64,000 bases of DNA from Candidatus Saccharimonadota bacterium (GCA_016700315.1 CP065013.1:774727-838726); one strand, 5' to 3'; counted from the first letter of the stretch, positions 490 through 57,275 are shown. The notes: generated from the letters alone by a model not told the origin. Numbers and translations are program-made.

Positions 490-916
490 GCAACATGCCA
501 GCCGGCCTTCTTTGGGGCGCAGTCCCAAACTCTGCCGACTTCTCTGGCTATCGAACGCTTTTTTACTGTGTTGCTCACTCGCCGTATATTAAATACGTCT
601 TGTTGCGTTACTCGCTAAAAACCGTACGCTAGCTCAGAGCATGTTACTCAGATGCTAATGTGGTTTGAAGCCCATATCTACTTCATTAATCCTTAATCGT
701 CAATCGTTATTCAGCGCCGAAGACGTATAAAGCGCTTGTGCTAGTGTTCGTGGTCTGTTAGGATATTTATTACGTCCGTTAAAAACAAAAGCGGCAACAA
801 AAACAAAAACAATTCAAAGCTCATTGCGAGCCATCGGGTTCAATAAGTAAGCCAGATGGGGGCTTTATGTGATTAAATGACTGTCGAACTGGCGGTCATT
901 TAAGTTAGGGCGAGAA

Positions 917-2087: not shown

Positions 2088-3113
2088 ATGGGACGTGCTA
2101 GAGCTATAGGTTTAACAGTAGGATTATTTGGTGCTGGAGTTGGTGGGTCGTTGCTAAAAGGGGGAGAGGTTAGCGCACACGTGCCTTTAGTTACTCCGAC
2201 CTGTGACTCTCTGGATATCGATCTATCAAGGTATGAGGATAATGGTACGGGCCAAAACAACATTATCAGAGTTGTTGTAGATGGTACTCTAGTTACGAAC
2301 TCATTATTCGGCAGCAGATATGTCAAATCTATAGAGCTGAATCCCGCACAGAAACATGACTATGAGGTCACAGTAGACGCCAACAGGTTGATTGGCGATC
2401 CTGTAAAATGGGATTTTTCAACTAGCGGTACCACTGAGAAGTGCGTGTCTCCAACCGACCCCACAGAAAGTACCGAAGCTTCAACGACTACATCCACCAC
2501 CGAAGCTCCAACTACGACTACATCTACCACTGAAGCTCCAACTACGACTACATCTACCACTGAAGCTCCAACTACGACTACGTCGACAACTGAAGCCCCA
2601 ACTACGACTACATCTACCACTGAAGCTCCAACTACGACTACGTCGACAACTGAAGCCCCAACTACGACTACTACATCTACCACTGAAGCTCCAACTACGA
2701 CTACATCCACCACTGAGGCTCCTACAACTACCACAACCACCGAAGCTCCAACTACGACTACATCTACCACTGAGGCTCCTACAACTACCACAACCACCGA
2801 AGCTCCAACAACGACTACATCCACCACTGAAGCTCCAACAACGACTACATCCACCACTGAGGCTCCTACAACCACCTCAACCACTGAAGCTCCAACAACG
2901 ACAACTACCGAAGCCCCAACAACGACTTCAGCCACAGAAGCTCCAACAACCACAACAACTTCTGATGTTGTGCACACTACAACCACTGTTAGCGACAGAG
3001 AGACTCCAGGCACCGGTTCAGAACCAGGCGGCGTAGTATTATGGGCCAGTATAATTACTGGTTCAGGGTTAGCGATCTACGGTGCATCGCGTATTAGGAA
3101 AAGGACTGTCTAG
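2088..3113 (+). CDS. Thr-rich mucin-like surface protein with C-terminal hydrophobic anchor plus basic tail
   Basis: About 13 tandem STTEAPTTTTS repeats; C-terminus TPGTGSEPGGVVLWASIITGSGLAIYGASRIRKRTV resembles a cell-wall sorting signal. Confidence 0.7.
   Translation: MGRARAIGLTVGLFGAGVGGSLLKGGEVSAHVPLVTPTCDSLDIDLSRYEDNGTGQNNIIRVVVDGTLVTNSLFGSRYVKSIELNPAQKHDYEVTVDANRLIGDPVKWDFSTSGTTEKCVSPTDPTESTEASTTTSTTEAPTTTTSTTEAPTTTTSTTEAPTTTTSTTEAPTTTTSTTEAPTTTTSTTEAPTTTTTSTTEAPTTTTSTTEAPTTTTTTEAPTTTTSTTEAPTTTTTTEAPTTTTSTTEAPTTTTSTTEAPTTTSTTEAPTTTTTEAPTTTSATEAPTTTTTSDVVHTTTTVSDRETPGTGSEPGGVVLWASIITGSGLAIYGASRIRKRTV
2470..2960. repeat. 33-nt tandem repeat array (about 13-14 copies) encoding TEAPTTTTSTT units
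   Basis: Near-identical repeats accgaagctccaactacgactacatctaccact directly visible. Confidence 0.85.
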
Positions 3114-23451: not shown

Positions 23452-23472
23452 CCGATTAAGGATTAAAGATTA

Positions 23473-24213
23473 ATGATTGTGGAAGAGAGCTCCGTAGCTA
23501 ACCAACAAATTGATATTCCTTGTGTTGGCTATGATGTGAAAGCTGACTTCTACGAAGGCGACGCCGACATTGCAGTAATGATTTATATTGGCTTTACATC
23601 GAATAAGTCTAGGTACAAGGCGCTAGCCGGCTTGCTAAACGAGCAACTAGGCGCTTCGGTTTTGGTGCTTGATTACAGTGGCCATGGCGCAAGTCCGTTC
23701 GATATTGATGATGTTTGTCCGGCTCAAAACTTCCTTGAGTCGATCACGGCCTTTGACTTGCTAAAGGCAAAGTATCCGAAGCGTCAGATGTTTGTTATTG
23801 GTACAAGCTATGGCGGATTTATGGCGACCCAGCTCACCAAATACCGTGAGTTTGATAAGTTAGTGCTGCGAGTGCCGGCACTATACAAGCCGCATGACTT
23901 TTATACTAAGTGGGGCGAATATGATTCAATCGAAACAAGACACGATTACAGACTTAACGCCAAGGATCTTGGATCTCACCCACTGCTAAAAAGGGCAGCC
24001 GATTTTAAGGGCAAGACGCTGGTTGTGACACATGAACTAGACACGATCTGTCCGCCGAACTCAACGGCCCCTTTTATTAAGGCTTTCCGGGCTGATCATT
24101 GGGTGGAGACTGGCTTGGGGCATTCATTCCGCGAAAGTGGTGTCACTAAGGCTCAGGCCGAAAAATATTACAATAAAATAATTGATTGGTTAAAAAATGA
24201 AAAAAGCAATTAG
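23473..24213 (+). CDS. alpha/beta hydrolase (esterase/lipase-like)
   Basis: GTSYGG nucleophile elbow, HG oxyanion region. Confidence 0.65.
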   Translation: MIVEESSVANQQIDIPCVGYDVKADFYEGDADIAVMIYIGFTSNKSRYKALAGLLNEQLGASVLVLDYSGHGASPFDIDDVCPAQNFLESITAFDLLKAKYPKRQMFVIGTSYGGFMATQLTKYREFDKLVLRVPALYKPHDFYTKWGEYDSIETRHDYRLNAKDLGSHPLLKRAADFKGKTLVVTHELDTICPPNSTAPFIKAFRADHWVETGLGHSFRESGVTKAQAEKYYNKIIDWLKNEKSN

Positions 24214-28178: not shown

Positions 28179-28186
28179 GCTTAAGC

Positions 28187-28308
28187 AGGAATTACGCGTT
28201 TAGTGCACTTTCGGATGAAAATCGAGTGCCGCAAGCCGAGCCGTACTTAACGTACGGTGAGCGCGGAACGGAGATTTTCGCCAAAAAGGTGCAACGCGTG
28301 ATTCCTGT
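28187..28308 (+). repeat. 122-nt element with 13-bp terminal inverted repeat (copy 1); candidate structured ncRNA or MITE
   Basis: CAGGAATTACGCG...CGCGTGATTCCTG termini, internal CCGTAC-TTAAC-GTACGG hairpin; second copy at 47934-48056. Confidence 0.6.
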
Positions 28309-35468: not shown

Positions 35469-35576
35469 GATCTATAAAATCTAAATCCTAAATCATAAAT
35501 TCTAAAAAATCTATATAAAATTTAAAGTGCTAATTATTTTTGAGTAAAAAACATCAAAAAGAGTTACAATAAGTTT

Positions 35577-35927: not shown

Positions 35928-35984
35928 TTTTTGAGCTTTTTAAATTTTTTAGAATTTAGAGTTTAGAAATTAGAATTTTAATAC

Positions 35985-37848: not shown

Positions 37849-37920
37849 AAAGATAGTTTATAGTTTATAGTTGATAGTTTCTAGTTATAATAAAAGTAGA
37901 AATAAAATTTAGGAGGGTAA

Positions 37921-38448
37921 ATGGCGGATTTTAACCAAGTTTTAACACCGGGCGATGTTGATAATGGAGTCATCAATACAGTAATTGAAATACCAAAATG
38001 GTCAACGCTCAAGATAGAGTGGAACCGTAAGGTGGCAGCTTTTCAGCTTGACCGCGTGGAGCCTAGTATTTTTGCCAAGCCTGTTAATTACGGCTTTATT
38101 CCTCAGACTCTAGATGAAGACGGCGATGAGTTGGATACGCTCGTGCTTACCAATGATCCGATCCCGACCGGGGTATTCTTGGAGGCGACGGTAATAGGTG
38201 TGCTCAAGTTTGAAGACGACGGAGAGGTCGATGACAAAATCATCTGTGTGCCGGCTGATGATCGCAACACCGATAATGCCATTAGTTCAATTGATGATCT
38301 ACACGCGCGCTGGCGTCAGAAAATCGAGCATCATTTTACCCATTACAAAGATTTGAAGAAACCCGGAAGCACGAAAGTTATCGGTTGGGGTGACGCCGAA
38401 GAGGCCAAACGGATTATTAAAGAGTGCATCACCCGATATAGTAAATAG
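37921..38448 (+). CDS. ppa: inorganic pyrophosphatase (family I)
   Basis: Family I PPase size and DEDGDELD / KFEDDGEVDDKI acidic active-site clusters. Confidence 0.85.
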   Translation: MADFNQVLTPGDVDNGVINTVIEIPKWSTLKIEWNRKVAAFQLDRVEPSIFAKPVNYGFIPQTLDEDGDELDTLVLTNDPIPTGVFLEATVIGVLKFEDDGEVDDKIICVPADDRNTDNAISSIDDLHARWRQKIEHHFTHYKDLKKPGSTKVIGWGDAEEAKRIIKECITRYSK

Positions 38449-39131: not shown

Positions 39132-40142
39132 ATGAAAACAAAAGTTGCAATTAATGGATTCGGACGAATTGGCCGTAACGCCTTTAGAATAGCCTTTGAC
39201 AGAAGTGACGTAGAAATTGTCGGGATTAACGATCTGACAGATACCAAGACGTTAGCGCACCTGCTTAAGTACGATACAAGCTACGGCAAGTATCATCACG
39301 AAGTCGCGCATGACGACACCCACATTATTGTCAAGGGAGTCAAGATCCCAATTAGCGCCGAAAAAGACCCTTCAGTGTTGCCGTGGAAGAAGCTGGGCGT
39401 TGACGTTGTGATTGAATCGACCGGGCGCTTTACCAAGGGTGAAGACGCCATGGCGCATATCAAAGCCGGTGCCCGCAAAGTCGTTATCAGCGCTCCTGCC
39501 AAAGGCGATGATGTCCAAACACTGGTAATCGGCGCCAATGAAGACGAAATGTCCAAGAGCGGTCCGATTGTCAGCAACGCTTCCTGCACAACAAACTCGG
39601 TTGCGGCAGTGATGGATATTATGGATCGTGAGTTTGGCGTCGAAAAAGCCATGCTAACAACGGTGCACAGTTACACTGCCAGTCAGGTGCTTCAAGATGC
39701 CCCGGCAAAAGATCTCCGCGAAGGCCGTGCAGCAGCAGAAAACATAGTCCCGACTACTACGGGGGCAGCAATTGCAGTTGCCTTGACGGTGCCTAACCTC
39801 AAGGGTAGGTTCGATGGACTAAGCATCCGAGTACCTACCCCAGTTGTTTCGATTAGTGACGTCACAATGGTGCTAAAGCGCGATACCACCAAAGAAGAAA
39901 TAAACGAAGTTTTTAAGAAGGCTGCCAAAGAGCCTTACTATCAGGGAATAGTAGGTGTTAGTGAAGAACCTTTGGTGAGCAAAGACTATGTTGGAAATAG
40001 CCATTCTGGTGTGGTTGACCTGTTACTCACTAATGTTGTTGCCGGAAACCTGGTCAAAGTAGTTGTCTGGTATGACAACGAATGGGGCTACTCTAATCGT
40101 TTAGTTGAGCTAGTAGCTGATATTGGCAAAGCACTAAAGTAA
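39132..40142 (+). CDS. gap: glyceraldehyde-3-phosphate dehydrogenase
   Basis: INGFGRIGR, SNASCTTNS catalytic Cys, WYDNEWGYS. Confidence 0.9.
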   Translation: MKTKVAINGFGRIGRNAFRIAFDRSDVEIVGINDLTDTKTLAHLLKYDTSYGKYHHEVAHDDTHIIVKGVKIPISAEKDPSVLPWKKLGVDVVIESTGRFTKGEDAMAHIKAGARKVVISAPAKGDDVQTLVIGANEDEMSKSGPIVSNASCTTNSVAAVMDIMDREFGVEKAMLTTVHSYTASQVLQDAPAKDLREGRAAAENIVPTTTGAAIAVALTVPNLKGRFDGLSIRVPTPVVSISDVTMVLKRDTTKEEINEVFKKAAKEPYYQGIVGVSEEPLVSKDYVGNSHSGVVDLLLTNVVAGNLVKVVVWYDNEWGYSNRLVELVADIGKALK

Positions 40143-40274
40143 AAATCTAAATGATAAATTCTAAATTCTAAAAAGACAGGAAATTTAGAAAATGCTAGTG
40201 AGAAACATCGTAATAGCGTCATCATTCATCATTCATCATTCGTCATTCAACGACTCTATATCGGAGCTACACTG

Positions 40275-41509: not shown

Positions 41510-42465
41510 CTTTTTTGACTTTTAAAGTAGGCCAGTAGAACTGGTGCACCAAGCTTGTTAGCGAATTCTCGGTGTTGCTTGGCCGTCTTGATGTCGGCAA
41601 TTCTCCCTCTTACATAGGCGAGTCTTTCGGCGCGGCCTTTTGCGCGTAGGTCAGAGGTTCTTCTGATTGATTTGAGGGAAATTGGTGTGCCGCCAGCTTC
41701 GGTTCTCTCCGCTACGGCGATTATAGAGGACTCGATGGGAAGGATAAGCCAATCTATATACTTACCGCTATTTAAGTTTTTAAGCACAGTTTCCCATATA
41801 CCCAGTTTCTGACACAATAACTTCTTTAGCTTTATTGATTCCGGAGCGTAGCTAATCGCCGAGGCAAACGAGTTAACAAGTTTAGCTCCATCAATTCCAA
41901 GAGCCTTAAAGTTCTCCATCTTCTCTGCCACTGATTCCGGAGCGTAGCTAATCGCCGAGGCAAACGAGTTAACAAGTTTAGCTCCATCAATTCCAAGAGC
42001 CTTAAAGTTCTCCATCTTCTCTGCCACTGATTCCGGTGCGTAACTAATCGCAGAAGCAAACGAGTTAACAAGTTTAGGAATATTAATACTGTATTGATTA
42101 TAGGTTCTAAAGGTTGCAAGCACTGTAGCGAGAGGCATAAGGGTATGTTTTTGATTCTCGAAGTTTGTTCTGCCGTTTGGGGCCTCAATGCCTTCTGGCG
42201 TATAGGGCATGTCAGTCAAGTCAAAAAAGTTTCTGCGTGCCAAAAGTGCTTGAGAGTAGTCTACTGGTTTGTGTGTAAGGTGTTCGACGTCGCTTCCTAG
42301 TAGCTCATTGAGCTGAATAAGCACACCAACGTCTGGTTCAATGCCACAGTTTATTAGCCAGCCAGCATCTAGCTCAGCTGAGACACTCTGGGCGCGTTCA
42401 AAAGCTGCTGCCGATGTGGGTGGCATATCAAATCGCTTGAGTTCGGGGGATACAACTACTGACAT
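41506..42465 (-). CDS. hypothetical protein with three 32-aa internal repeats
   Basis: SVAEKMENFKALGIDGAKLVNSFASAISYAPE repeated about three times. Confidence 0.5.
   Translation of the reverse strand: MSVVVSPELKRFDMPPTSAAAFERAQSVSAELDAGWLINCGIEPDVGVLIQLNELLGSDVEHLTHKPVDYSQALLARRNFFDLTDMPYTPEGIEAPNGRTNFENQKHTLMPLATVLATFRTYNQYSINIPKLVNSFASAISYAPESVAEKMENFKALGIDGAKLVNSFASAISYAPESVAEKMENFKALGIDGAKLVNSFASAISYAPESIKLKKLLCQKLGIWETVLKNLNSGKYIDWLILPIESSIIAVAERTEAGGTPISLKSIRRTSDLRAKGRAERLAYVRGRIADIKTAKQHREFANKLGAPVLLAYFKSQKS
41839..42080. repeat. 96-nt tandem repeat (about 2.5 copies) inside the CDS
   Basis: ttccggagcgtagctaatcgccgaggcaaacgagttaacaag... recurs at 41839, 41935 and 42031. Confidence 0.8.
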
Positions 42466-45491: not shown

Positions 45492-45612
45492 TAATGTATT
45501 TAGCAGGAAGCAAGGAACAGGTGACAGAAAATTTTCAGGTATCAGGCGGCAGACTGAAGACAGAAGTTTTAGTCTGTAAAATGCTAAATGCTAAATTTCT
45601 GCAAGATGCTAA

Positions 45613-46666
45613 GTGTTGTTTGACAAATTTAAGTTCTGGAGGTGTCAAGTGAGTGATAGCGAAAAAAGACAGTTAGACGTTTTGTCGGTAGGAGACGTAG
45701 TTACTGATGCCTTTATCAAACTAATTGACGATAAGGCTTGGTCTTATAAAGACGAAAACGGAATGAAAGTGCTCGCTATGGAGTATGGCACTAAAACACC
45801 TTACGATCATGCTGAAGTTCTTGAGGGTGTCGGCAATGCCGCCAACGCCGCTGTTTCCTTTTCGCGGCTTGGGCTAGACTCAGGTTTGGTTAGTAATGTT
45901 GGTAGCGACTCTTGGGGTCGGGACATCATAAATGCGCTCCAGAAAAAGAAGGTAGACACCCGCTTTGTCCACGTCAATCACGGCAAGAAGAGTAACTATC
46001 ACTATGTACTCTGGTACAAAGAAGAACGGACAATTCTGATAAAACACGAGCAATACTGATTATGATTGGCCACGTTTTCGAAAAAGTGATCTGCCAAAGT
46101 GGGTTTACTTCAGCTCGGTTAGCGATAATGCGCTGCCTTATCATGACGAAATCGCTGAGTGGCTTGAGGAAAACCCTTCTGTCAAATTTGCCTTTCAGCC
46201 TGGAACTTTCCAGATAAAAGCTGGTGCAGAGCGGCTGAAGGCGCTCTATAGGCGTGCGGAGATACTGTTCCTTAACCGTGAGGAGGCAGTAACTGTCGGT
46301 GGCGGTGACTATGATAATATGCATGACTTATTCGATAAACTACATGCTCTTGGCCCAAAGAACGTTGTTATAACAGATGGGCCGGCTGGTAGTTACGCCA
46401 GTGACGGTACTAATAGGTTTAAGATGATCAACTACCCAGACCCGGCACCACCATTTGAACGTACCGGAGCTGGCGATGCCTATGCTTCGACATTTGTGGC
46501 GGCACTGATAAAAGGCGCTGACTTACAAGGTGCCATGCTCTGGGCGCCGATTAACTCTATGAACGTTGTCCAGCACACTGGCGCTCAAGCCGGGTTGCTA
46601 ACGACTAAGGAGATCGACTACTACCTACGAAATGCTCCAGCCAACTATCGTCCTGAAGTACTTTAG
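45613..46666 (+). pseudogene. PfkB-family carbohydrate kinase interrupted by a +1 frameshift near 46057
   Basis: N-terminal half (GNAANAAVSFSRLG) ends ...KHEQY*; frame 2 continues DYDWPRF... through the GAGDAY anion hole; deleting one T at 46057 restores EQYDYDW. Confidence 0.6.
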
Positions 46667-46679
46667 TTAGAAAATTCAT

Positions 46680-47915
46680 ATGAGCAGAATAATACGAGAA
46701 CTCTATGTCGAACCCGAACAAGCTAAGCAGCTTCTAGCGAGGCTTGAGCAGCTCAGCGGCAATAATGGGATAGACATTGTTTTGGCTACCGAGTTAGCCT
46801 CGACTCTCAAGCAAACATTTATCGAGCTAAAACTCGACCCTAAAGACACATCTTTGAAAGAGTTATATGCTGCTCTTCTAGCTAGGCTAAATCGAGACGA
46901 AACTAGTTTTGTTGATGAGCTAAGTTTAACTACCACAAGTGAGCAAGAATTCGTGGATAAATTATCTTTTAAACTCAATCAGGTTTTTAGTACCAAAATG
47001 CTGCTTGTACCGAAAAGAAGTGTCGTAAAATCAATCCTAAAAAAACTACCACCAAAAAATGCCCTAAAGCTTCTACACTATCGGTCGCTCGATTCGGCAC
47101 TAAGACGTTGCCCAGAGTCGGTGCTTATGGCAGCATGTGAATTAACGGAGTCGAAAAAATGGCTTATTTCTTTTAATGAAGCGATTGATAGGCTCAAGAG
47201 TAACGATTTTGAAAAACGTGCGATTGAATACTCTAGCGTTGATGATAAAAAATGGAGAATGTTACACGCTAAACTCATATCTCGTAGCGGACACTCTGTT
47301 TACCGAGTCAATGTTGCGGGAGGGATTATTATCGTGCCTTCGTCACACGAGCTAAAGCCTGGTGTTGCAAGCTTGACGCTTGCGGCTTGCATCAGTGCTA
47401 CACAAAAACTCAGAATTCATAGTAGTTTCACGGTTAGAGTTCTACTCGACGAGTCTGTGCCGACCAGCATAAGCGAACATCTTAATGACCTGGATCAAGG
47501 CTCGTTGGTTATCAGGAGTGTACATTTTGGATGGCAAGATCTGCATCATCATTTAGTAGAATCGTCTCGATCATTAGCTCTTTTTGAGCCGCACATCACA
47601 GAATCAGATATAGAAGGCGATAGCTTCGTACAACTTCTAAATAATGTAACCAAGGCTTATGGTTGGTGGCTTAGCCGGCTGGCGGTTGGGTACAACGAGG
47701 GTAGCATAACAGTTTCGTGTAATATCTACGATATGGCCCGCAATCTCGCCTTTTCGCGTGAGTTTGGACAGCATACATTAGTTGCTATGCGTCGAGAAAT
47801 AGATCATCTGCTTAGATCTCGCTACTTGAAAAATGACATACTCCAAAGCAGAATATATGACATGTTAAACGCCGCGAGCAATTTCGGCACTTCCGCAGAT
47901 TTCAACGATATATAA
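46680..47915 (+). CDS. hypothetical protein
   Basis: 411-aa ORF, no recognisable motif. Confidence 0.5.
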   Translation: MSRIIRELYVEPEQAKQLLARLEQLSGNNGIDIVLATELASTLKQTFIELKLDPKDTSLKELYAALLARLNRDETSFVDELSLTTTSEQEFVDKLSFKLNQVFSTKMLLVPKRSVVKSILKKLPPKNALKLLHYRSLDSALRRCPESVLMAACELTESKKWLISFNEAIDRLKSNDFEKRAIEYSSVDDKKWRMLHAKLISRSGHSVYRVNVAGGIIIVPSSHELKPGVASLTLAACISATQKLRIHSSFTVRVLLDESVPTSISEHLNDLDQGSLVIRSVHFGWQDLHHHLVESSRSLALFEPHITESDIEGDSFVQLLNNVTKAYGWWLSRLAVGYNEGSITVSCNIYDMARNLAFSREFGQHTLVAMRREIDHLLRSRYLKNDILQSRIYDMLNAASNFGTSADFNDI

Positions 47916-47933: not shown

Positions 47934-48056
47934 CAGGAATTACGTGTTTAGTGCATTTTCGGATGAAAATCGAGTACCGAAAGCCGAGCCGTACTTAACG
48001 TACGGTGAGCGCGGAACGGAGATTTGCGCCAAAAAGGTGCAAGCGCGTAATTCCTG
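47934..48056 (+). repeat. 123-nt element, copy 2 of the 28187-28308 element
   Basis: About 92% identical to copy 1 in the same orientation; terminal stem maintained with a G-U instead of a mismatch. Confidence 0.6.
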
Positions 48057-48057
48057 A

Positions 48058-48770
48058 CTATTTTATGAAGGAGTTTTCGATGCGTGTTTTATTGTGTTCA
48101 TATTGTTCGTTGATTATTTTTCGGGCGTAGTTTAGGTCGTTCGTAATATGGTAGAGCTTACGATCTCCTTTGCTGATTAAACCATTCTTGAGCATATGAC
48201 GCTTGATGTAGCGATCGAGCGGGTTCCAGAATTTCTTACCAACTAGGATTATTGGAACCGGCGCCATTTTGCCAGTTTGGATTATTGTTATAACCTCAAA
48301 AAACTCGTCGAATGTGCCAAAACCCCCAGGAAAAAAATGAAACCATGTGAATAGAAAGTCATCATAACTTTACGAGTGAAAAAGTAGTTAAAGGCGAGGC
48401 TGCTGGTAGTGTAAGGGTTGAGGTGTTGTTCTTTAGGCAATACTATGTTAAATCCAATCGAGACATGCTGCTCATCGAACGCGCCGCGGTTGCTCGCTTC
48501 CATGACGCCACCACCACCGCCAGAAACTATAGCAAAGCCGTCTTGTGCTAGCATGGCAGCTAAATCGTGGGCTTCGCGGTAAGCTTTGAATCTGTTGGAA
48601 ATTCTTGCTGACCCGAAAAAAGTTACTCGCTTTGGGTATTTTTTTAAGATCTTGAAGGCTTCTTCGAATTCTTCGTCACTTGTACGTAGCTTGCGTGATG
48701 ATTTCTGGATACTGGCAATCTGCTCGGCGCTCATTTTCCATACTTTATCTTCGTGTGTGTGTTTGTGCAT
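48058..48770 (-). pseudogene. LOG-family (cytokinin riboside 5'-monophosphate phosphoribohydrolase-like, TIGR00730) gene frameshifted at an A7/T7 homopolymer (48330-48336)
   Basis: Upstream ORF ends ...FNYFFTRKVMM; alternative frame after the T7 run gives FFPGGFGTFDEFFEVITIIQTGKMAPVPIILVGKKFW, the canonical LOG motif. Confidence 0.65.
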
Positions 48771-49390
48771 ATGCTTATCATTGTACAGCGTATAGCGGTT
48801 AGGGTGAAGCGGTAAATAGCAAGTAGCAAGTCCGCCGATGGCGGCTTGGAACGATGAACGAGGAACTATGAACGAGGGAAAGCTAGCGGTTAGCGTATAG
48901 GGGTTAGGGTTTAGTAGTAAGCGTAAAATTCTAAACTCTAAGCACTAAATTCTAAAATAGACCCTAGCTCTTGGCTCATGACTCTTGGCTCTATTTGAGC
49001 GGTACGCAGTACAGGGTACGGGGTACGGGGTAATATTTGCTGGTCCCTAGTCCCTGGACCCTGGTCCCTAGTAGGTACGCGGTACGGAGTAATTTTTACT
49101 AACTACTAACTACTAGTCCCTAGACCCTCGACCCTCGACCCTGGATGGTACGTGGTACGCGGTACGGGGTAATATCTACTAACTACTAACTACCAACTAC
49201 TAACTACTAGCTACTAACTACCAACTACCAACTACCAACTACCAACTACTAGTCCGTAGCCCTAATCACTTTAACCTCTAACCTCTAACCTAATCATGGC
49301 TCTTCTATCAACTATCAACCATAAACTATCAACTCGTCATTACTCAGTAAACAGTATTCAGTTATCATTCCATTGTCTATAATGTAGCTA
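48771..49390. repeat. 620-bp non-coding satellite of heptamer microsatellites arranged in about three higher-order units
   Basis: Runs of GGTACGG, CTAACTA/CCAACTA, GACCCTC, ACCTCTA heptamers visible directly. Confidence 0.75.
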
Positions 49391-51358
49391 ATGACTAAGT
49401 TTAAGATAACGAGCGACTATAAGCCCGAAGGAGATCAGCCGGAGGCCATAGAAAGCCTAGTAAAGGGGCTAGAAAATGGGGCCAAGGAACAAGTTTTGCT
49501 TGGAGTAACTGGTTCTGGTAAGACTTTTACCATGGCTAATGTTGTGGAGCGGGTTCAACGCCCAACGTTAGTAATTTGCCATAACAAAACTTTAGCAGCC
49601 CAGCTGTACGAAGAGTTTAAAAGTTTCTTCCCAGACAATGCAGTGCACTATTTTGTATCATACTTTGATTACTATCAGCCGGAAGCCTATATACCAAGAA
49701 GCGACACATATATAGAAAAAGACAGTGACATAAATGAAGAGATCGACCGCCTGCGCCACGCAGCGACGGACTCTCTGCTAACCCGCCGTGATGTTTTGAT
49801 AGTGGCCAGTGTGTCTTGTATCTACGGTATTGGCAGCCCCACAGACTACGCCGATCTGGCCGAACATGTCGTAAAAGGCCAGCGTAAGGTTCGTGATAAG
49901 TTTATTCGTCGCTTGACGGATATCCAGTATCAGAGAAACGACATTGACTTTCATCGAGGTACTTTCCGGGTACGCGGCGATTCTATTGATGTTTTCCCGG
50001 CGGCCGAAGAGCTAGCTTACCGGATAGAGTTTTTTGGCGACGAAGTAGAGAGGATCCTCAAAATTGATCCTTTGACTGGAGAAATACTGGCTAAGCCAGA
50101 GAGAATCGGTATTTTCCCAAGCAGTCACTATGTTACACCGCAGGAAAAGGTAAAATCAGCGCTTGCCAAGATTGAGGTTGAGCTAGCTGAGCGCACAGCA
50201 TACTTTAAGAAACATAATCAACTCCTTGAGGCACAGCGGCTTAACCAGCGTACACGTTTTGACGTCGAGATGCTCGAAGAAACAGGGTTTGTGAAAGGTA
50301 TCGAGAATTACAGTCGCTACCTGACAGACCGCGAACCAGGTGAACAGCCCGCAACGCTGCTAGATTACTTCCCAGATGATTTTTTGATGCTGATCGATGA
50401 GAGTCATATGACCTTACCGCAAATTAGAGGAATGTATAATGGCGACCGAGCTCGCAAAGAGGTTTTGGTAGATTACGGCTTCCGATTGCCTAGTGCATTG
50501 GACAACCGCCCCCTAACGTTTAGTGAGTTTGAGCGGCACGTTAATCAGGTTGTATATGTTAGTGCAACCCCGGCCGAGTACGAGCTGAGCCGCAGCCCTA
50601 AGCCCGTTGAGCAGGTGATTCGACCGACCGGGCTAATTGATCCGCCGATTGAGGTGAGGCCCGTCGAAGGCCAAGTTGATGATCTGATAGCAGAAATTCG
50701 CCAACGGGTTAACGCCAACCAACGAGTTTTGGTGACAACTTTAACCAAGCGTATGAGCGAAGACCTCACCGAGTATCTCCAGGAACTAGGAATGAAGGTT
50801 GCATATCTTCACAGCGATGTTGATACGATGGAGCGAAGCGATATATTGAGGGATCTAAGACTCGGTGTTTATGATGTTTTGGTGGGCATAAATCTACTAA
50901 GAGAAGGGCTAGACTTGCCGGAAGTGTCGCTGGTTGCAATTTTAGACGCCGACAAAGAAGGTTTCTTGCGTTCAGCTCCAGCGCTTATCCAGACAATTGG
51001 TCGCGCCGCAAGACATGAACAGGGCAAGGTAATTATGTATGGCGACGTAATAACCGGTAGCATGAAAACTGCGATTGATGAAACCAATCGACGACGCACA
51101 ATCCAGCAAAGCTACAACGAAAAACACGGGATCACGCCTACTAGTGTCAAGAAGCGTATTGCCGAGCGGCTCAGCCATGAAGATTCGGCCGACGACAAGA
51201 AGAAAAAGATTGACCTGCGCAAAATTCCAAAAGAAGAATATAAGCACCTGATCCGTGATCTAACATCGCAGATGAACTTGGCTAGTGCCAACCTCGAATT
51301 CGAAAAAGCAGCCGAGCTGCGTGACCTAATAAAAGAGATAAACGCAAAGCTTGAATAG
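49391..51358 (+). CDS. uvrB: excinuclease ABC subunit B
   Basis: [12 protein letters not shown] Walker A, helicase motifs, C-terminal UvrB/UvrC interaction helix. Confidence 0.95.
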
Positions 51359-51434
51359 AAATAGATTAAAAAAATTTTACATGAGTAATAGAATAGTGTT
51401 ATAATAACTTTTAATAAGTAATTAGGCGAACTAT

Positions 51435-52742
51435 TTGAAATCTATTGTTGATGAGTTCTGGGACGAATTAAAAAATAACAGCATTATATATTTATATATA
51501 TTTTTATTTTTTAATGGCATAATTTTTATAATTTACTATAAATTTAAGTCATTCAACTCCAGTAGTCTTTCTGACATATTTTATCTATACTCTGTCCTGA
51601 CTCTTGTAACACTACTGATAAAATACGTTGCATGTCTTTTCCACCCACAAGATAGATGGGCGATGATTAGGCCTCGAAAATGGCCGTCAATAGACATTAT
51701 AATACCTGGTTATAATGAAGGAAGTGCTGTGTATGAAACTGTACGAAGTATAAATAATTCAAACTATCCTAAAGATAGATTGAATATCGTCCTAATTAAC
51801 GATGGTTCAACAGATGATACGCTTGCACATATGAAGCGAGCTCAAGAAAAATACAAAAAGCGAAATGTTGCTGTCATTAACTTTAGAAAAAATAAAGGTA
51901 AAAAAGAAGCGATGGCGGCTGGTTTTCGAAAAACAAAAAGTGAGTACGTAGTTTTTGTTGATAGTGATAGTAAAATAAAAAAAGATTGTTTGAAAGAGTT
52001 GATTCGTCCTTTTTATAGTAAAAATTCAAAGATTCGTGCCGTATCTGGTCATGCACTAGTATGGAATAGTGATGTAAATCTACTAACAAAAATGCAAGAA
52101 ATTAGATATTTCAATGCTTTCAGATCCACTAAAGCTGCCGAGAGTCTTCTTGGTTTTGTTTCATGTTGTCCAGGATGTTGTTCTGCATACGAAAGAACCG
52201 CTATGAAAAAGATCCTAAAACCGTGGTTAGATCAATCATTCTTAGGAGCCAAATGTACATATGGCGATGACAGAAGTCTCACTAATTTCATTCTTAAAGA
52301 CGGACATCATACTGTATATAACCAAAAAGCTGTAGCATATACGATAGCCCCGCATACATATAAAAAATTTGCTAAACAGCAATTAAGATGGAAAAAATCT
52401 TGGGCACGTGAAAGTGTCGTAGTAATGTCGTTCGTATGGAAGAGAAATCCTATAGTATCTCTCATGATTGGTATAGATATCATTACACCTTTCCTTGCAC
52501 CAATAGTAATTATTCAGATCTTCCTTTTCCACTCTTTTGTTAACACTGCGTCATTTTATGCTTACCTAGTCGGAATTTTAATATTTGCGAGTTGTTTCGG
52601 CTTATTTTACAAAATACACAATTCACAAAGTAAAAACTGGCTTCGAGCTTCGCTAATTTCATCGCTGGTCAGCATTATTTTATTCTGGCAATTGCCATAC
52701 GCACTTATGACGCTAAAAGATACCAAGTGGGGTACGCGATAA
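51435..52742 (+). CDS. processive family-2 glycosyltransferase of the hyaluronan-synthase / NodC / chitin-synthase type
   Basis: N-terminal TM helices, DGSTDDT, DSDS, GDDRSLTN and QQLRWKKSW motifs; about 30% GC versus about 48% in flanks. Confidence 0.75.
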   Translation: MKSIVDEFWDELKNNSIIYLYIFLFFNGIIFIIYYKFKSFNSSSLSDIFYLYSVLTLVTLLIKYVACLFHPQDRWAMIRPRKWPSIDIIIPGYNEGSAVYETVRSINNSNYPKDRLNIVLINDGSTDDTLAHMKRAQEKYKKRNVAVINFRKNKGKKEAMAAGFRKTKSEYVVFVDSDSKIKKDCLKELIRPFYSKNSKIRAVSGHALVWNSDVNLLTKMQEIRYFNAFRSTKAAESLLGFVSCCPGCCSAYERTAMKKILKPWLDQSFLGAKCTYGDDRSLTNFILKDGHHTVYNQKAVAYTIAPHTYKKFAKQQLRWKKSWARESVVVMSFVWKRNPIVSLMIGIDIITPFLAPIVIIQIFLFHSFVNTASFYAYLVGILIFASCFGLFYKIHNSQSKNWLRASLISSLVSIILFWQLPYALMTLKDTKWGTR

Positions 52743-52822
52743 GAGAGATTTTTCTTTTTTTGAAGAATTTAACAATTCATGTATAATAGTTGTAATAGGT
52801 TTTTTTAAAGGAGTGATTTTTA

Positions 52823-52993
52823 ATGAGTGAAACTGGAAATACAGGAACAGCAGTTCTCGGAGCGTCAACAACAGTAGCAAGCACTGTGGCGTTAGCTAAG
52901 ACAGGAGCTCCGTTAGTGATGTCTATAGCCGTAGGCGCGACGCTAATAACTTTAACACTTACTGTTTTTCTTAGCAGAAGAAAAAGCAACTAA
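52823..52993 (+). CDS. 56-aa peptide with LAKTG-hydrophobic-SRRKSN C-terminus (sortase sorting-signal-like) and no N-terminal signal peptide
   Basis: AAAGGAG SD 8 nt upstream of ATG; MSETGNTGTAVLGASTTVASTVALAKTGAPLVMSIAVGATLITLTLTVFLSRRKSN. Confidence 0.4.
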   Translation: MSETGNTGTAVLGASTTVASTVALAKTGAPLVMSIAVGATLITLTLTVFLSRRKSN

Positions 52994-53010
52994 AAAAATA
53001 GCCAAACAGT

Positions 53011-54348
53011 ATGACTAAGAATGATCTTGGTTCAGTTTGTGTTATTGGTCTTGGATATGTTGGCTTACCTCTTGCCGTACAAGCGGCGCACAAAGGATTT
53101 ACCGTATTTGGTATCGATCTTAATAAAGACATTGTCGATAAAGTAAACAGCAGAATCTCACCTTTTGTAAATGATCCTGGATTTGAACATGAGTTACAAA
53201 GCCTTGAAAGTGGTAGCCTAAAAGCCCATACATCTTATGGCCCTATCGTATCTTCTGATGTAGTTATCATATGTGTTCCGACTCCTACTGATAATAACAT
53301 CCCAGATTATAGTTATGTAGAATCTACTGCGGAAGAAATAGCTAAAAGATTGAAAAAAGGTCATCTTATACTATTAGAGAGTACTATTAATCCTGGAGTA
53401 ACACGAGACAAAGTTTTACCAATCCTTGAGTCAGCGTCGGGCCTTACAGCAGGAATAGATTTCCACCTTGCGCATTGTCCAGAAAGAATTGACCCAGGCA
53501 ACAAAAGATTTAATGTTAAAAACCTAAATCGTGTCGTGGGTGGAATTAGCTTAGAGTGTAGCGAAAAAGCGGCCGCGTTTTATAGAAAAATTATAAACGC
53601 TAAAATCATTCAACTTGATACGACTGAAGAAGCCGAATTTGTAAAATCATGGGAAAATAGTCACCGCAATGTAATGATAGCGCTAGCAAATCAAGCTGCG
53701 GTTATTTGTGATTCATTAGGAATGAATATCGATAATGTACTACTTGGGCTCAATTCAAAAGTTGAACAATTCGGTCTCAAGCTAGCTAAGCCCGGTATTG
53801 GACCTGGTGGGCATTGTATCCCAGAAGATATTCACTATGTTATTAGCAGGGCAAGACAAAGCGGTTTAGACACTAGTCTCTTAGACGGTGCTGTACGTTT
53901 TAATGACGGTATGCCGAGTTACGCAGTGTATAAACTTGAAACTATGGTCAAATCTGATGGTAAAAATTTTAAGAGTATGAAAGTTGGAATACTAGGAATA
54001 GCCTACAAAGAAAACGTAGCTGACCCAAGAAGGAGCCCTGCAATTGATCTCGTGAATTCGCTCGTCCAAAAATGTCAAAAAGTTATTATACATGACCCGT
54101 ATGTTGATAGGTCGTACCTTGAATCAATAAAGAACGTGGGAGTGTCAAGCACACTAGATGAGTTATTAAACACATGTGATGCGTTTATTCTAGCAACAGC
54201 TCATACGGTATATATAGATTCTATTAATAAAGAAATTATTAAGAAGAGTAGCATTAAATATGTGCTTGATGGACGTAATGCGTTTGATACGGAAATGTTT
54301 AGAAACGTAGATGTTAGGTACTCCGGAATAGGTAAAAACTTAAAATAG
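53011..54348 (+). CDS. UDP-glucose/GDP-mannose dehydrogenase family (nucleotide-sugar 6-dehydrogenase)
   Basis: VIGLGYVGLP NAD fold, GGHCIPED catalytic Cys region. Confidence 0.8.
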   Translation: MTKNDLGSVCVIGLGYVGLPLAVQAAHKGFTVFGIDLNKDIVDKVNSRISPFVNDPGFEHELQSLESGSLKAHTSYGPIVSSDVVIICVPTPTDNNIPDYSYVESTAEEIAKRLKKGHLILLESTINPGVTRDKVLPILESASGLTAGIDFHLAHCPERIDPGNKRFNVKNLNRVVGGISLECSEKAAAFYRKIINAKIIQLDTTEEAEFVKSWENSHRNVMIALANQAAVICDSLGMNIDNVLLGLNSKVEQFGLKLAKPGIGPGGHCIPEDIHYVISRARQSGLDTSLLDGAVRFNDGMPSYAVYKLETMVKSDGKNFKSMKVGILGIAYKENVADPRRSPAIDLVNSLVQKCQKVIIHDPYVDRSYLESIKNVGVSSTLDELLNTCDAFILATAHTVYIDSINKEIIKKSSIKYVLDGRNAFDTEMFRNVDVRYSGIGKNLK

Positions 54349-54368
54349 GTACTCATTTCTTTAAAGAA

Positions 54369-54890
54369 ATGATGCGACCGATAACCTTCGAAGATCTTTC
54401 GGGCGATGTTTGTGGAACTAGCACTCATACTACCGATATTCTTCATCCGGCCATCAAAGTAGTCAAGGAAGGGCCTGCATCGGCTCCAGCAGGCGGCAAA
54501 GTCACCTACAACTTCAGCGTTACAAACACAGGTGATACAACTTTGTCGATTGAATCGGTTATAGACGATATTGCCGGAGTGGGTACTTACGTATCAGGCG
54601 ACACCAACTCAAATGCTAAGCTAGATGCCGGTGAGATCTGGCTGTACCAAGCGCAGTACATGGTACCATCTAGCCAAACCGCCAATGTTAATAACACAGT
54701 GGTTGTCTGCGTTAGGGACGGCTTGCAGCTACAGGTTTGCAGTAGCGACAAGCACAGCTTGACTATTCCAAAAGTTCTAGGACTTCAAACTACAGGGCAT
54801 GGCACGACAGCGCAGCTAGTCTGTGGACTGTCGATAATCTTTGCTGTTAGTTTGTTGCTAGCCACGCGCAAAATCAAAACAGATCGATAA
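54369..54890 (+). CDS. DUF11-like repeat-domain surface protein (possibly a fragment) with C-terminal LQTTG-hydrophobic-TRKIKTDR tail
   Basis: KVTYNFSVTNTGDTTL typical of conserved-repeat-domain proteins; no signal peptide. Confidence 0.45.
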   Translation: MMRPITFEDLSGDVCGTSTHTTDILHPAIKVVKEGPASAPAGGKVTYNFSVTNTGDTTLSIESVIDDIAGVGTYVSGDTNSNAKLDAGEIWLYQAQYMVPSSQTANVNNTVVVCVRDGLQLQVCSSDKHSLTIPKVLGLQTTGHGTTAQLVCGLSIIFAVSLLLATRKIKTDR

Positions 54891-57143: not shown

Positions 57144-57275
57144 TTACAAGGCAATTTTCAATTTTCAGAATTGCATCCACTCCCATTAAAAGAAAAAGTA
57201 GTTTATTAGATATTGATTATTGGAAATTGATTAAAAATTGCAAATTGAAAATTGTAAATTGTGAAGCGGTAATAT

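What the first reader, a model, noticed from the sequence alone, without database searches (positions are those of the whole stretch)
48771..49390. 620-bp heptanucleotide satellite between the LOG pseudogene and uvrB
The entire intergenic region is built from short tandem arrays with a 7-nt period: GGTACGG/GGTACGC, CTAACTA/CCAACTA (about 13 consecutive units at 49185-49250), GACCCTC/GACCCTG and ACCTCTA. They are arranged in about three higher-order units (GGTACGS run, GTAATAT, CTAACTA run, TAGTCCCTAG, ACCCTSG run). Eukaryote-like satellites of this complexity are rare in bacteria. As VNTRs they are expected to be length-unstable, and one sits in the promoter region of uvrB. It could be a contingency or phase-variation locus, a protein-binding array, or the product of a lineage-specific repeat-generating mechanism.
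Basis: seen in the sequence. Interest (0 to 1): 0.55.

Follow-up and report, generated by a model that had tools for sequence, protein, structure and literature searches.

The report
Hypervariable dispersed heptamer satellite in Saccharibacteria
The 620-bp spacer between the LOG gene and uvrB in this ultra-small Saccharibacteria genome is a real satellite made of 7-base repeats; it changes length between strains in whole 7-base steps, recurs at other places in the genome and sits at an inversion breakpoint, but it belongs to a known class of bacterial heptamer repeats and shows no sign of controlling uvrB.

Summary
Lag-7 identity across 48771-49390 is 0.61, against 0.25±0.018 in shuffles, and the region holds more than 10 heptamer motif families grouped into three higher-order units. 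The genome is a closed 988-kb Candidatus Saccharibacteria MAG. Independent assemblies of the same species (LOG at least 99.2% identical in DNA) carry different alleles. The LOG-to-uvrB spacer measures 376, 495, 529, about 604 or 620 bp, against 68-150 bp in other Saccharibacteria. Indels between alleles are mostly multiples of 7 nt, so this is a true VNTR and not an assembly artefact. The variable part lies between two conserved, promoter-bearing edges, so there is no evidence for a classical phase switch of uvrB. The ~150-bp higher-order module also occurs in two other spacers of the same species (dnaE-CAP and LeuRS-NusB) in different gene contexts. One 44-kb contig shows a ~50-kb inversion whose crossover lies in inverted heptamer arrays. 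Best reading: a dispersed heptanucleotide satellite, analogous to Mrázek's long SSRs and cyanobacterial STRRs. It evolves by 7-nt-register slippage and ectopic recombination, and is largely neutral but recombinogenic. It is newly reported for Saccharibacteria. Interest is moderate.

The parts
48058..48770 (-). LOG-family (TIGR00730 / Lysine_decarbox) gene, split in this assembly by a 1-nt deletion in an A8 run at 48331
   Evidence: ORFs. Gap located against L083. Intact 237-aa version P0016 found in 24+ contigs. Pfam PF03641.
48771..48826 (.). Conserved LOG-proximal edge; carries a promoter-like TTCACC-17-TACAAT on the minus strand (48808..48780), 9 nt before the LOG ATG
   Evidence: Promoter scan. 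98% identical in L083, L097, L098, L099 and L100, and about 92% over 60 bp in L095, L096 and L101.
48832..48877 (.). Present/absent block: CCGCC-GAT-GGCGG palindrome (48832-48844) plus (GGAACGA TGAACGA)x2 with a 14-nt period (48848-48877)
   Evidence: TRF. Present in the window, L093, L094 and L102. Absent from L083, L095, L096, L098 and L101.
48884..48959 (.). Degenerate TAGCGGT/TAGGGTT units followed by the interrupted TAAATTC block; the TAAATTC block has the same 5 units in every allele
   Evidence: No two adjacent units are identical, and no copy-number change is seen.
48960..48992 (.). GACCCTR (1-4 copies among alleles) and the GCTCTTG/GCTCATG/ACTCTTG array, which is the first sub-array of the ~150-bp module
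49001..49072 (.). Higher-order unit 1: GGTACGS run, GTAATAT, then RGWCCCT x4. The last is a G3N4 x4 quadruplex motif on the minus strand at 49045-49068
49073..49145 (.). Higher-order unit 2: GGTACGS x2, GTAATTT, TACTAAC x2.7, TAGTCCC/GACCCTC x4 (minus-strand G4 motif at 49118-49141)
   Evidence: TRF 73-bp period at 49043-49188..
49146..49262 (.). Higher-order unit 3: GGTACGS x3, GTAATAT, CTACYAA x10.9 (49176-49251), TAGTCCGTAGCCC
   Evidence: The CTACYAA run varies in length between alleles (about 5 to 11 units read from the layouts).
49272..49291 (.). TAACCTC (=ACCTCTA) x2.9; 1-5 copies among alleles. k=31 (Logan) contigs from other samples end here or within about 20 bp, in the adjacent arrays
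49305..49334 (.). CTATCAA/CCATAAA x4.3; crossover site (about 49310-49326) of the ~50-kb inversion seen in contig L093
49226..49390 (.). Conserved uvrB-proximal edge (decayed heptamers CAGTAAA/CAGTATT...) with TATAAT at 49378-49383, 7 nt before the ATG
   Evidence: 5 differences in 165 bp against L083, compared with 6.5% divergence at uvrB 4-fold sites. The last 94-108 bp are 100% identical in L001, L002 and L103, and the last 179 bp are 97% identical in L095. Sequence read.
49391..51358 (+). uvrB (655 aa, QQS64762.1)

Best explanation
This is one locus of a dispersed, species-specific heptanucleotide satellite in a Candidatus Saccharibacteria genome.

Organisation. Short pure runs of 7-nt units (GGTACGS, CTACYAA, RGWCCCT, TAACCTC, GCTCTTG, CTATCAA and others) are strung together in a ~150-bp higher-order module. 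The module is reiterated 2-3 times here and occurs in at least two other spacers nearby.

How it changes. Shown: pure runs gain and lose whole 7-nt units, and blocks of several to about 20 units also come and go. Inferred: the small changes arise by slipped-strand mispairing during replication, and the larger ones by unequal or ectopic homologous recombination.

Origin. Inferred: these processes inflated an ancestral 70-150-bp divergent-promoter spacer to 376-620 bp.

Function. Inferred: the satellite is probably close to neutral for the flanking genes, because both core promoters lie in the conserved edges. Shown for one inversion: its repeats act as substrates for genome rearrangement. That is also a plausible route for spreading array fragments to new spacers.

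Open. Why the register is 7 nt is not explained here. The published suggestion is a 7-nt footprint of the replicative polymerase that favours slippage (Mrázek 2007, as cited in PMC4679880 and PMC4692102).
For: - Periodicity and anatomy.
- Organism: UvrB = QQS64762.1 on a 988,272-bp Candidatus Saccharibacteria record. All 80 nearest genome hits come from MAGs of the Saccharibacteria/Patescibacteria group, though a few records carry other or no taxon labels.
- Expansion: in relatives with the same divergent LOG-uvrB arrangement the spacer is 68-150 bp. Two of them (L065, L081) already have 3-5 TAGTAAK-like heptamers next to LOG.
- VNTR: alleles of 620, 529, 495, 376 and about 604 bp occur with 0-6 differences among the other strains' 714-nt LOG genes.
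- 7-nt register: 28 of 54 internal alignment gaps are multiples of 7. The closest pairs differ by 7, 7, 28 and 91 nt (L102/L095) or by a single 7-nt gap (L083/L098).
- Purity rule: only pure runs vary. The interrupted TAAATTC block is constant in all alleles.
- Dispersal: a 154-bp module matches the dnaE-CAP spacer (L120, L119; 76-84% over 128-181 bp, opposite orientation) and the LeuRS-NusB spacer (L093 1255-1335, 81%). These are convergent and co-directional gene contexts.
- Species specificity: no match in 1.55 Mb from 80 other Saccharibacteria species.
- Inversion: the left part of L093 is 99.2% identical to L116 (NusB-NUDIX-rnc, which normally continues into S16-KH-trmD at the window's left end). 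Its right part is the window from 49326 backwards. The join lies in about 25 bp of inverted CTATMAA-type heptamers, far shorter than the k=141 used for that assembly.
- No alternative product: no Rfam family, no unusual RNA folding (z +0.6 and -1.4) and no ORF over 58 codons.
Against: - No expression data or transcription start sites are available, so an effect of array length on uvrB or LOG is not excluded.
- The uvrB-proximal 165 bp, itself made of decayed heptamers, is somewhat more conserved than uvrB 4-fold sites (5 differences; P about 0.04). Part of the region is therefore under constraint.
- RGWCCCT runs give canonical G-quadruplex motifs on the minus strand, which could have a function.
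- Dispersal of a 150-bp module could also reflect a mobile element rather than recombination.
- The inversion rests on one contig, and the reciprocal junction was not recovered.
- Slippage was not observed directly.
- Neutrality is an inference from position and context.
Confidence: 0.6

Rival explanations
1. Expression rheostat or contingency locus. Repeat number tunes transcription of uvrB and/or LOG. It could do so by changing the distance or phasing between the divergent promoters or upstream sites, or by lying in an undetected 5' UTR. Known parallels are the 7-bp repeats upstream of hmw1A/hmw2A in Haemophilus influenzae and the TTTTGAT heptads upstream of Vibrio cholerae ctxAB.
For: The array lies between two divergent genes and varies in copy number between strains. 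A second promoter-like site (TTTAGA-17-TAGAAT, minus strand, 48956..48928) lies inside the invariant TAAATTC block. Functional heptamer arrays of this type are documented (PMC8262952, PMC12721329, bioRxiv 10.1101/2021.05.14.444153).
Against: The variable runs lie outside the predicted -35/-10 elements of both genes, which sit in the conserved edges. The flanking genes are housekeeping genes, not surface or restriction genes. The same module fills a convergent spacer (dnaE-CAP) and a co-directional spacer (LeuRS-NusB), where no promoter logic applies. Promoter-like hits in the region are at chance level: 2 found against 1.1±1.0 expected.
Confidence: 0.12
2. Structural or protein-binding array. 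The heptamers would be binding sites for a nucleoid-associated or regulatory protein, or would form non-B DNA (G-quadruplex or i-motif) that has a chromosomal role, as proposed for GGGNATC and GGGGAYT repeats in Xanthomonas and Nostoc.
For: Two G3N4 x4 motifs lie on the minus strand at 49045-49068 and 49118-49141. The same module order is kept at three loci. Related G-rich heptamers form quadruplexes in vitro (PMC4692102).
Against: Ten or more unrelated motifs share only their length, which does not fit one sequence-specific binder. The number of contiguous G-tracts is not kept at four or more in all alleles; L093 and L094 have 3+2. Other intergenic heptamer arrays in the window and in relatives use quite different, AT-rich units. 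There is no long inverted repeat or cruciform.
Confidence: 0.1
3. A non-autonomous mobile element (MITE- or BOX-like) whose body consists of heptamer sub-arrays. Copies would spread by transposition and then vary internally.
For: A ~150-bp module with conserved internal order is present at three or more spacers in both orientations. It is species-specific. BOX elements of Streptococcus pneumoniae are a precedent for dispersed modular repeats with variable internal copy number (own knowledge).
Against: No terminal inverted repeats or target-site duplications are evident. The arrays fill the spacers from gene end to gene end, and the modules are themselves tandem. No transposase is nearby in the gene lists. 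An inversion with one breakpoint inside an array gives a transposase-free route of spread.
Confidence: 0.1
4. Assembly artefact: a concatemer of low-complexity or adapter reads, or a mis-assembly in this closed MAG.
For: The window carries two 1-nt frameshifts relative to sister strains, at 46057 and 48331, so its base-level accuracy is imperfect.
Against: Homologous arrays with the same motif order are found in independent NCBI, ENA, JGI and Logan assemblies from many samples. The last 94-108 bp are identical in the three contigs compared.
Confidence: 0.01

Closest known systems
Long simple sequence repeats with heptanucleotide units (Mrázek et al. 2007, as summarised in PMC4679880 and PMC4692102)
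   Same: Both are tandem 7-nt units in intergenic DNA. Both vary extensively in length and sequence between close relatives. Both have a sporadic, lineage-specific distribution. Polymerase slippage is the presumed origin in both.
   Different: Here more than 10 motif families are concatenated into a ~150-bp higher-order module. That module is itself tandem and is dispersed to other spacers. The host is a ~1-Mb Patescibacteria genome, and I found no paper linking this group with SSRs.
Cyanobacterial STRR sequences (three tandem heptanucleotides of Calothrix PCC 7601, cited in PMC4692102; motif sequences from my own knowledge of Mazel et al. 1990)
   Same: Both are heptamer tandem arrays repeated at many intergenic sites of one genome. 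Both are strain-variable enough to be used for fingerprinting.
   Different: The motifs are different: no CCCCAGT, TTGGTCA or CAACAGT tandems are present. The phylum is different. Only three module loci have been documented so far, in about 80 kb of same-species sequence.
TAACTGA direct repeats of marine Beggiatoaceae, some Cyanobacteria and Bacteroidetes (PMC4679880)
   Same: Both are heptamer direct repeats in spacers. One unit here (TAACTAC) is similar to TAACTGA.
   Different: There is no TAACTGA tandem in the window. The Beggiatoaceae repeats are a single motif of 2-6 copies placed a few nucleotides upstream of start codons. Here there are many motifs, the variable runs begin about 100 nt or more from the uvrB ATG (LOG and uvrB may be leaderless), and copies also occur in convergent spacers.
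G-rich heptamers GGGNATC (Xanthomonas) and GGGGAYT (Nostoc) that form quadruplexes (PMC4692102)
   Same: Both are intergenic heptamers with G3 tracts, and both show length and sequence variation between close relatives. The RGWCCCT runs here fit a G3N4 quadruplex motif.
   Different: Only two of the sub-arrays here are G-tract units, and the G4 motif is not retained in every allele.
Phase-variable heptamer repeats upstream of hmw1A/hmw2A in Haemophilus influenzae (PMC8262952, PMC12721329) and TTTTGAT heptads of the Vibrio cholerae ctxAB promoter (10.1101/2021.05.14.444153)
   Same: All are 7-nt tandem repeats upstream of a gene with strain-variable copy number.
   Different: Those arrays are a single motif placed in a 5' UTR or at an activator site of a virulence gene, with demonstrated expression effects. 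Here the genes are housekeeping, the arrays lie outside the predicted core promoters, and the module also occurs where there is no promoter.
Eukaryotic satellites with higher-order repeats; BOX elements of Streptococcus pneumoniae (own knowledge)
   Same: The organisation is hierarchical (unit, sub-array, ~150-bp module, tandem modules). Copies are dispersed, internal copy number is variable, and the repeats are involved in rearrangements.
   Different: The scale is hundreds of bp rather than kb to Mb. No centromeric or RNA-structure role is indicated. This is an analogy only.

Membership tests
Heptanucleotide long SSR (LSSR sensu Mrázek 2007) | Head-to-tail repeats of a 5-11-nt unit, longer than expected by chance for the genome | tested here: met
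   Lag-7 identity 0.61 against 0.25±0.018. TRF arrays reach 10.9 copies.
Heptanucleotide long SSR (LSSR sensu Mrázek 2007) | Copy-number polymorphism between strains in whole units | tested here: met
   Five spacer lengths from 376 to 620 bp. 28 of 54 gaps are multiples of 7, and the closest pairs differ by 7, 7, 28, 91 and by 7.
Heptanucleotide long SSR (LSSR sensu Mrázek 2007) | Generated by replication slippage | not testable with these tools
   Inferred from unit-register indels and from the stability of interrupted runs. No mutation-accumulation data are available.
Cyanobacterial STRR | Same heptamer motif(s) repeated at many dispersed loci of the genome | tested here: inconclusive
   The module recurs at 3 loci in about 80 kb of same-species DNA. 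The whole 988-kb genome could not be scanned.
Cyanobacterial STRR | STRR1-3 motifs, in heterocystous cyanobacteria | tested here: not met
   No CCCCAGT, TTGGTCA or CAACAGT tandems. The organism is a Saccharibacteria.
TAACTGA repeat system (Beggiatoaceae and others) | TAACTGA unit, arrays within a few nt upstream of start codons | tested here: not met
   No TAACTGA tandem in the window. Variable arrays end about 100 nt or more from the uvrB ATG.
SSR-mediated phase-variable (contingency) locus | Repeat located in the ORF, between -35 and -10, or in the 5' UTR, so that unit changes switch expression | tested here: inconclusive
   Predicted -10/-35 elements lie in the conserved edges outside the variable runs. 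Transcription start sites are unknown.
SSR-mediated phase-variable (contingency) locus | Associated gene encodes a surface, virulence or restriction-modification function | tested here: not met
   The flanking genes are uvrB and a LOG-family gene. Other copies lie next to dnaE, CAP, LeuRS and NusB.
SSR-mediated phase-variable (contingency) locus | Reversible high-frequency switching within a clonal population | not testable with these tools
   Needs read-level or culture data.
MITE-like mobile element | Defined termini (TIRs) and target-site duplications; empty sites in relatives | tested here: inconclusive
   No TIR or TSD was recognised, and the arrays fill whole spacers. The spacer exists without the module in other species. 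No same-species empty site was found.
Structured non-coding RNA | Match to a known family, or folding better than shuffled sequence | tested here: not met
   No Rfam hit at E≤1. Folding z-scores are +0.61 and -1.43.

The most novel reading that the evidence does not exclude
Ultra-small Saccharibacteria genomes carry a self-propagating family of heptamer-based satellites with ~150-bp higher-order modules. In this reading the satellites spread through array-to-array and array-to-spacer recombination, and they are a main driver of inversions and synteny breaks in natural populations. The same 7-nt-register slippage process would be at work as in cyanobacteria, Xanthomonas and Beggiatoaceae. That would give a small, tractable genome in which to find the enzyme property that sets the 7-nt register.
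Probability: 0.2. Interest if true: 0.65.

Novelty: new variant of a known kind. Interest (0 to 1): 0.45.

Why it matters
- Taxonomic reach. Heptanucleotide repeats are the most over-represented long SSR class in many bacteria, yet neither the 7-nt register nor any function has been explained. Finding a clear population-level example in a ~1-Mb Patescibacteria genome extends the phenomenon to a very different, highly reduced lineage with a small protein repertoire.
- Rearrangement. The arrays mark a ~50-kb inversion breakpoint. This suggests that such satellites contribute to genome rearrangement in organisms that otherwise have few repeats.
- Practical use. The locus is a ready-made high-resolution strain marker (VNTR) for this Saccharibacteria species across the metagenome samples in which it was found. 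It also explains why short-read assemblies of the species break at this point.
- Annotation. It warns annotators that ORF callers extend LOG into the array, as in the 266-aa call in GCA_029781765.1.

Tried and rejected
- Two exact-pattern scans of metagenome contigs found nothing: the uvrB start region and the module junction GGGTAATATNTACTAACTAC. That collection evidently lacks the JGI samples that do carry the species (L097-L102).
It missed the same-species assembly.
- The split 160-aa LOG ORF of the window is not on record in the contig index.
- Pooled lag-7 identity of all other window spacers is not raised (0.284 against about 0.28). The genome-wide signal therefore comes from discrete short arrays, not from diffuse periodicity.
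- Rfam, RNA folding on both strands, and the inverted-repeat search gave nothing. The structured-RNA and cruciform ideas were dropped.
- I first expected a cyanobacterial origin or horizontal transfer, because the arrays look STRR-like. This was rejected: all flanking genes and the nearest relatives come from the Saccharibacteria/Patescibacteria group, and no STRR motifs are present.
- The reciprocal inversion junction (S16 joined to uvrB) was sought through other UvrB alleles. All of those Logan contigs stop 108-128 bp upstream of uvrB.
- (CTACCAA)3 occurs in 12 viral contigs. I judged this a generic SSR coincidence and did not pursue it.

Full report
**1. The observation**

The sequence between the LOG start (minus strand, ATG at 48770-48768) and the uvrB start (49391) was read directly. 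Identity at lag 7 is 0.612, with harmonics of 0.51, 0.43 and 0.37 at lags 14, 21 and 28. Every other lag gives 0.18-0.29. One thousand shuffles give 0.253±0.018 with a maximum of 0.31. No other stretch of the window reaches 0.6 per 100 bp.

TRF reports 14 period-7 or period-14 arrays in the region and a 73-bp higher-order period at 49043-49188. Written in rows of seven, the register is kept over long stretches, and adjacent motif families differ by only a few substitutions.

Three details need correcting. The CTACYAA run has 10.9 units, not about 13. The leftmost ~110 bp is only weakly periodic. The LOG 'pseudogene' rests on one missing base in an A8 run.

**2. Organism and setting**

UvrB equals QQS64762.1, which lies on a 988,272-bp Candidatus Saccharibacteria record. 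The 80 best genome hits (70-79% amino-acid identity) come from MAGs of the Saccharibacteria/Patescibacteria group, although a few records carry other or no taxon labels.

The gene order pfkB - 411-aa protein - LOG(-) - uvrB(+) is widespread among these relatives. Where LOG and uvrB are divergent neighbours, the spacer is only 68-150 bp. Two relatives (L065, L081) already carry 3-5 TAGTAAK-like heptamers next to LOG, resembling the TAAGTAG/CAAGTAG units found here. The 620-bp spacer is therefore an expansion of a small ancestral spacer.

**3. It is real and hypervariable**

Look-ups by exact protein sequence retrieved the same species from many independent assemblies.
- GCA_029781765.1 (L083) is 98.9% identical in the left flank and 97.7% across uvrB, but its spacer is 529 bp.
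- Contigs encoding an identical 237-aa LOG (0-6 differences among these strains in 714 nt) have spacers of 495 bp (L102), 376 bp (L095) and about 604 bp (L094). Further partial alleles were also recovered.

Sub-array copy numbers differ between alleles: GACCCTR 1-4, TAACCTC 1-5, and a CTACYAA run of about 5 to 11 units. The GGAACGA block with its small palindrome is present or absent. The GCTCTTG...GGTACGS part is duplicated in L083, L093, L094 and L098.

In pairwise alignments, 28 of 54 internal gaps are multiples of 7. The closest pairs differ by 7, 7, 28 and 91 nt (L102/L095) or by one 7-nt gap (L083/L098). Only runs of identical units vary. The interrupted TAAATTC block has the same five units in every allele. 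This is the behaviour expected from slippage and unequal exchange in a 7-nt register. The artefact hypothesis is excluded.

**4. Relation to the flanking genes**

The first ~45-56 bp next to LOG are conserved among alleles, as are the last ~90-165 bp next to uvrB, depending on the allele pair.
- The LOG edge carries TTCACC-17-TACAAT on the minus strand, ending 9 nt before the ATG.
- The uvrB edge carries TATAAT at 49378-49383, 7 nt before the ATG. Both mRNAs may therefore be nearly leaderless; this is an inference.
- The uvrB edge has 5 differences in 165 bp against L083, compared with 6.5% divergence at uvrB 4-fold sites (P about 0.04). This is mild evidence of constraint.

The variable runs lie between these two edges. 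Copy-number change alters the distance between the two core promoters, not their internal geometry.

No Rfam family matches. RNA folding is no better than for shuffled sequence (z +0.61 and -1.43). There is no significant inverted repeat and no open frame longer than 58 codons. Two G3N4 x4 quadruplex motifs lie on the minus strand at 49045-49068 and 49118-49141, but four contiguous tracts are not kept in every allele.

**5. The module is dispersed and recombinogenic**

The sub-arrays follow a fixed order: GCTCTTG run, TTGAACA, GGTACGS run, GTAATAT, CTACYAA run, TAGTCCNTAGCCCTAATCAC, TCTAACC run, TAATCATG. This ~150-bp module is tandem in L083 with a period of 146 bp.

A 154-bp copy matches two other spacers of the same species:
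- the convergent dnaE-CAP spacer just beyond the window's right end (L120 14451-14819 and L119 13433-13743), in reverse orientation, 76-84% identical over 128-181 bp;
- the co-directional LeuRS-NusB spacer just beyond the left end (L093 1153-1530).

There is no copy elsewhere in the window or in 1.55 Mb from 80 other species. Because the three gene contexts differ, a promoter-specific role is unlikely.

Contig L093 (44 kb, k=141, sample ERZ27309394) joins rnc to the array and LOG. Its left part is 99.2% identical to L116, where NusB-NUDIX-rnc continues into S16-KH-trmD, which is the window's left end. Its right part is the window read backwards from 49326. This amounts to an inversion of about 50 kb. 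The crossover falls in about 25 bp of CTATMAA-type heptamers that are present in inverted orientation in the rnc-S16 spacer. That spacer is itself about 200 bp of decayed heptamers. The shared stretch is far shorter than k, so a graph mis-join is unlikely. The reciprocal junction was not recovered.

Other contigs (L097, L098, L099) attach LOG or the array to yet other genes. An inversion with one breakpoint inside an array moves array fragments to a new spacer. This offers a transposase-free way for the family to spread; that step is inference.

**6. A lineage tendency**

Outside the region, the window has 10 further period-7 TRF arrays. Periods 6, 8, 9 and 10 have 2-4 each, shuffles give about 1, and the 80 relatives average about 2 per 64 kb. 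All ten arrays are intergenic and have unrelated, mostly AT-rich units.

One of them (40143-40274) is replaced by a different heptamer array in L083. Another (37853-37886) is identical in both strains.

Some relatives have their own multi-motif heptamer spacers. L005 2492-2825 is one, with lag-7 identity of 0.48; L006 and L051 are others. The common factor is unit length, not sequence. This argues for a property of replication or repair rather than a sequence-specific binding protein.

**7. Comparison with what is known**

Heptanucleotide units are the most abundant class of long SSRs in many bacterial genomes, and a 7-nt polymerase footprint that favours slippage has been proposed (Mrázek 2007, as summarised in PMC4679880 and PMC4692102). 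They are strongly over-represented in the intergenic DNA of Nostoc and Xanthomonas, with extensive length and sequence variation between close relatives (PMC4692102). Other examples are the three tandem heptamers of Calothrix (cited in PMC4692102), TAACTGA repeats in Beggiatoaceae (PMC4679880), heptamer-derived satellites in Chloroflexus (PMC6749651), and four- or five-unit heptamer elements in Geobacter (PMC2700814).

Functional heptamer arrays exist upstream of hmw1A/hmw2A and ctxAB (PMC8262952, PMC12721329, 10.1101/2021.05.14.444153).

The present case meets the definition of a heptanucleotide long SSR. It does not carry the STRR or TAACTGA motifs. It fails the gene-class criterion for contingency loci and is inconclusive on repeat position.

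What is unusual is the hierarchical organisation (unit, sub-array, ~150-bp module, tandem and dispersed modules), the link to an inversion, and the host. No paper in the library links Saccharibacteria with SSRs.

**8. Verdict**

The best explanation, at confidence about 0.6, is a dispersed, largely neutral but recombinogenic heptanucleotide satellite that evolves by 7-nt-register slippage and ectopic recombination. It is a new variant of a known kind, of moderate interest (0.45).

Noticed in passing
window 47934-48056 and 28186-28307: A 123-bp dispersed element, about 93% identical between its two copies, with terminal inverted repeats CAGGAATTACG...CGYRATTCCTG. One copy lies between the convergent 411-aa gene and LOG. 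Many short-read contigs end inside this element, and contig L097 changes gene neighbours there. No Rfam match for the 47934-48056 copy; the 28186 copy was not searched.
   Followed up: partly
window 51331-54890: Strain-variable island downstream of uvrB. A low-GC (about 28-37%) GT2 chitin/hyaluronan-synthase-like gene (51435-52742) and a UDP-glucose dehydrogenase (53011-54348) replace most of a 1691-aa SpaA/CLIPPER surface protein found in sister strains (L083, L103, L122). A 173-aa DUF7507 remnant is left at 54369-54890. Logan contigs with identical UvrB diverge from the window after about 51421.
   Followed up: partly
window 46057 and 48331: Two 1-nt frameshifts relative to sister strains: an inserted T in pfkB, and a deletion in an A8 run in LOG. 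Each splits a gene that is intact elsewhere. They are either sequencing errors in this closed MAG or recent pseudogenes.
   Followed up: partly
window 686-709, 23454-23478, 35477-35506, 35948-35978, 37853-37886, 40142-40172, 40219-40249, 45579-45596, 57152-57167, 57230-57261: Ten further short heptamer arrays (3-5 units), all intergenic, each with its own mostly AT-rich unit. The pair at 40142-40249 is replaced by a different heptamer array (CTACCTA-type) in strain L083.
   Followed up: yes
window 46680-47915 versus 49391-51330: Against strain L083, the 411-aa gene left of the satellite has 0 differences at 178 four-fold sites, while uvrB on the right has 18 of 279 (6.5%). A recombination boundary therefore lies at or near the satellite.
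   Followed up: partly
window 41836-42077: A 96-bp tandem repeat (2.5 copies, 97% identical) lies inside a minus-strand ORF of 319 aa. The homologous ORF in L083 is only 157 aa, so this protein-coding repeat also varies between strains.
   Followed up: no
window 2484-2957: Imperfect 30/57-nt coding repeats (about 14 copies) that encode a Thr/Ser/Pro/Glu-rich low-complexity stretch in the ORF at 2088-3113.
   Followed up: no
window 48768-48785 and 49378-49393: Both LOG and uvrB have a -10-like box only 7-9 nt upstream of the ATG and no Shine-Dalgarno sequence, suggesting leaderless mRNAs. Other genes in the window (for example at 37921) have a clear GGAGG.
   Followed up: no
L083 11379-12179: The gene call for LOG in GCA_029781765.1 (266 aa) starts 29 codons too early and translates heptamer repeats (LLLTTCYLLLTTCY...). 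This is an annotation artefact caused by the satellite.
   Followed up: yes
L104-L115 (IMG/VR contigs): (CTACCAA)3 occurs as a tandem array in 12 viral contigs, including giant-virus MAGs, with up to 5 consecutive matches at a contig end (L108). Probably unrelated SSRs.
   Followed up: no
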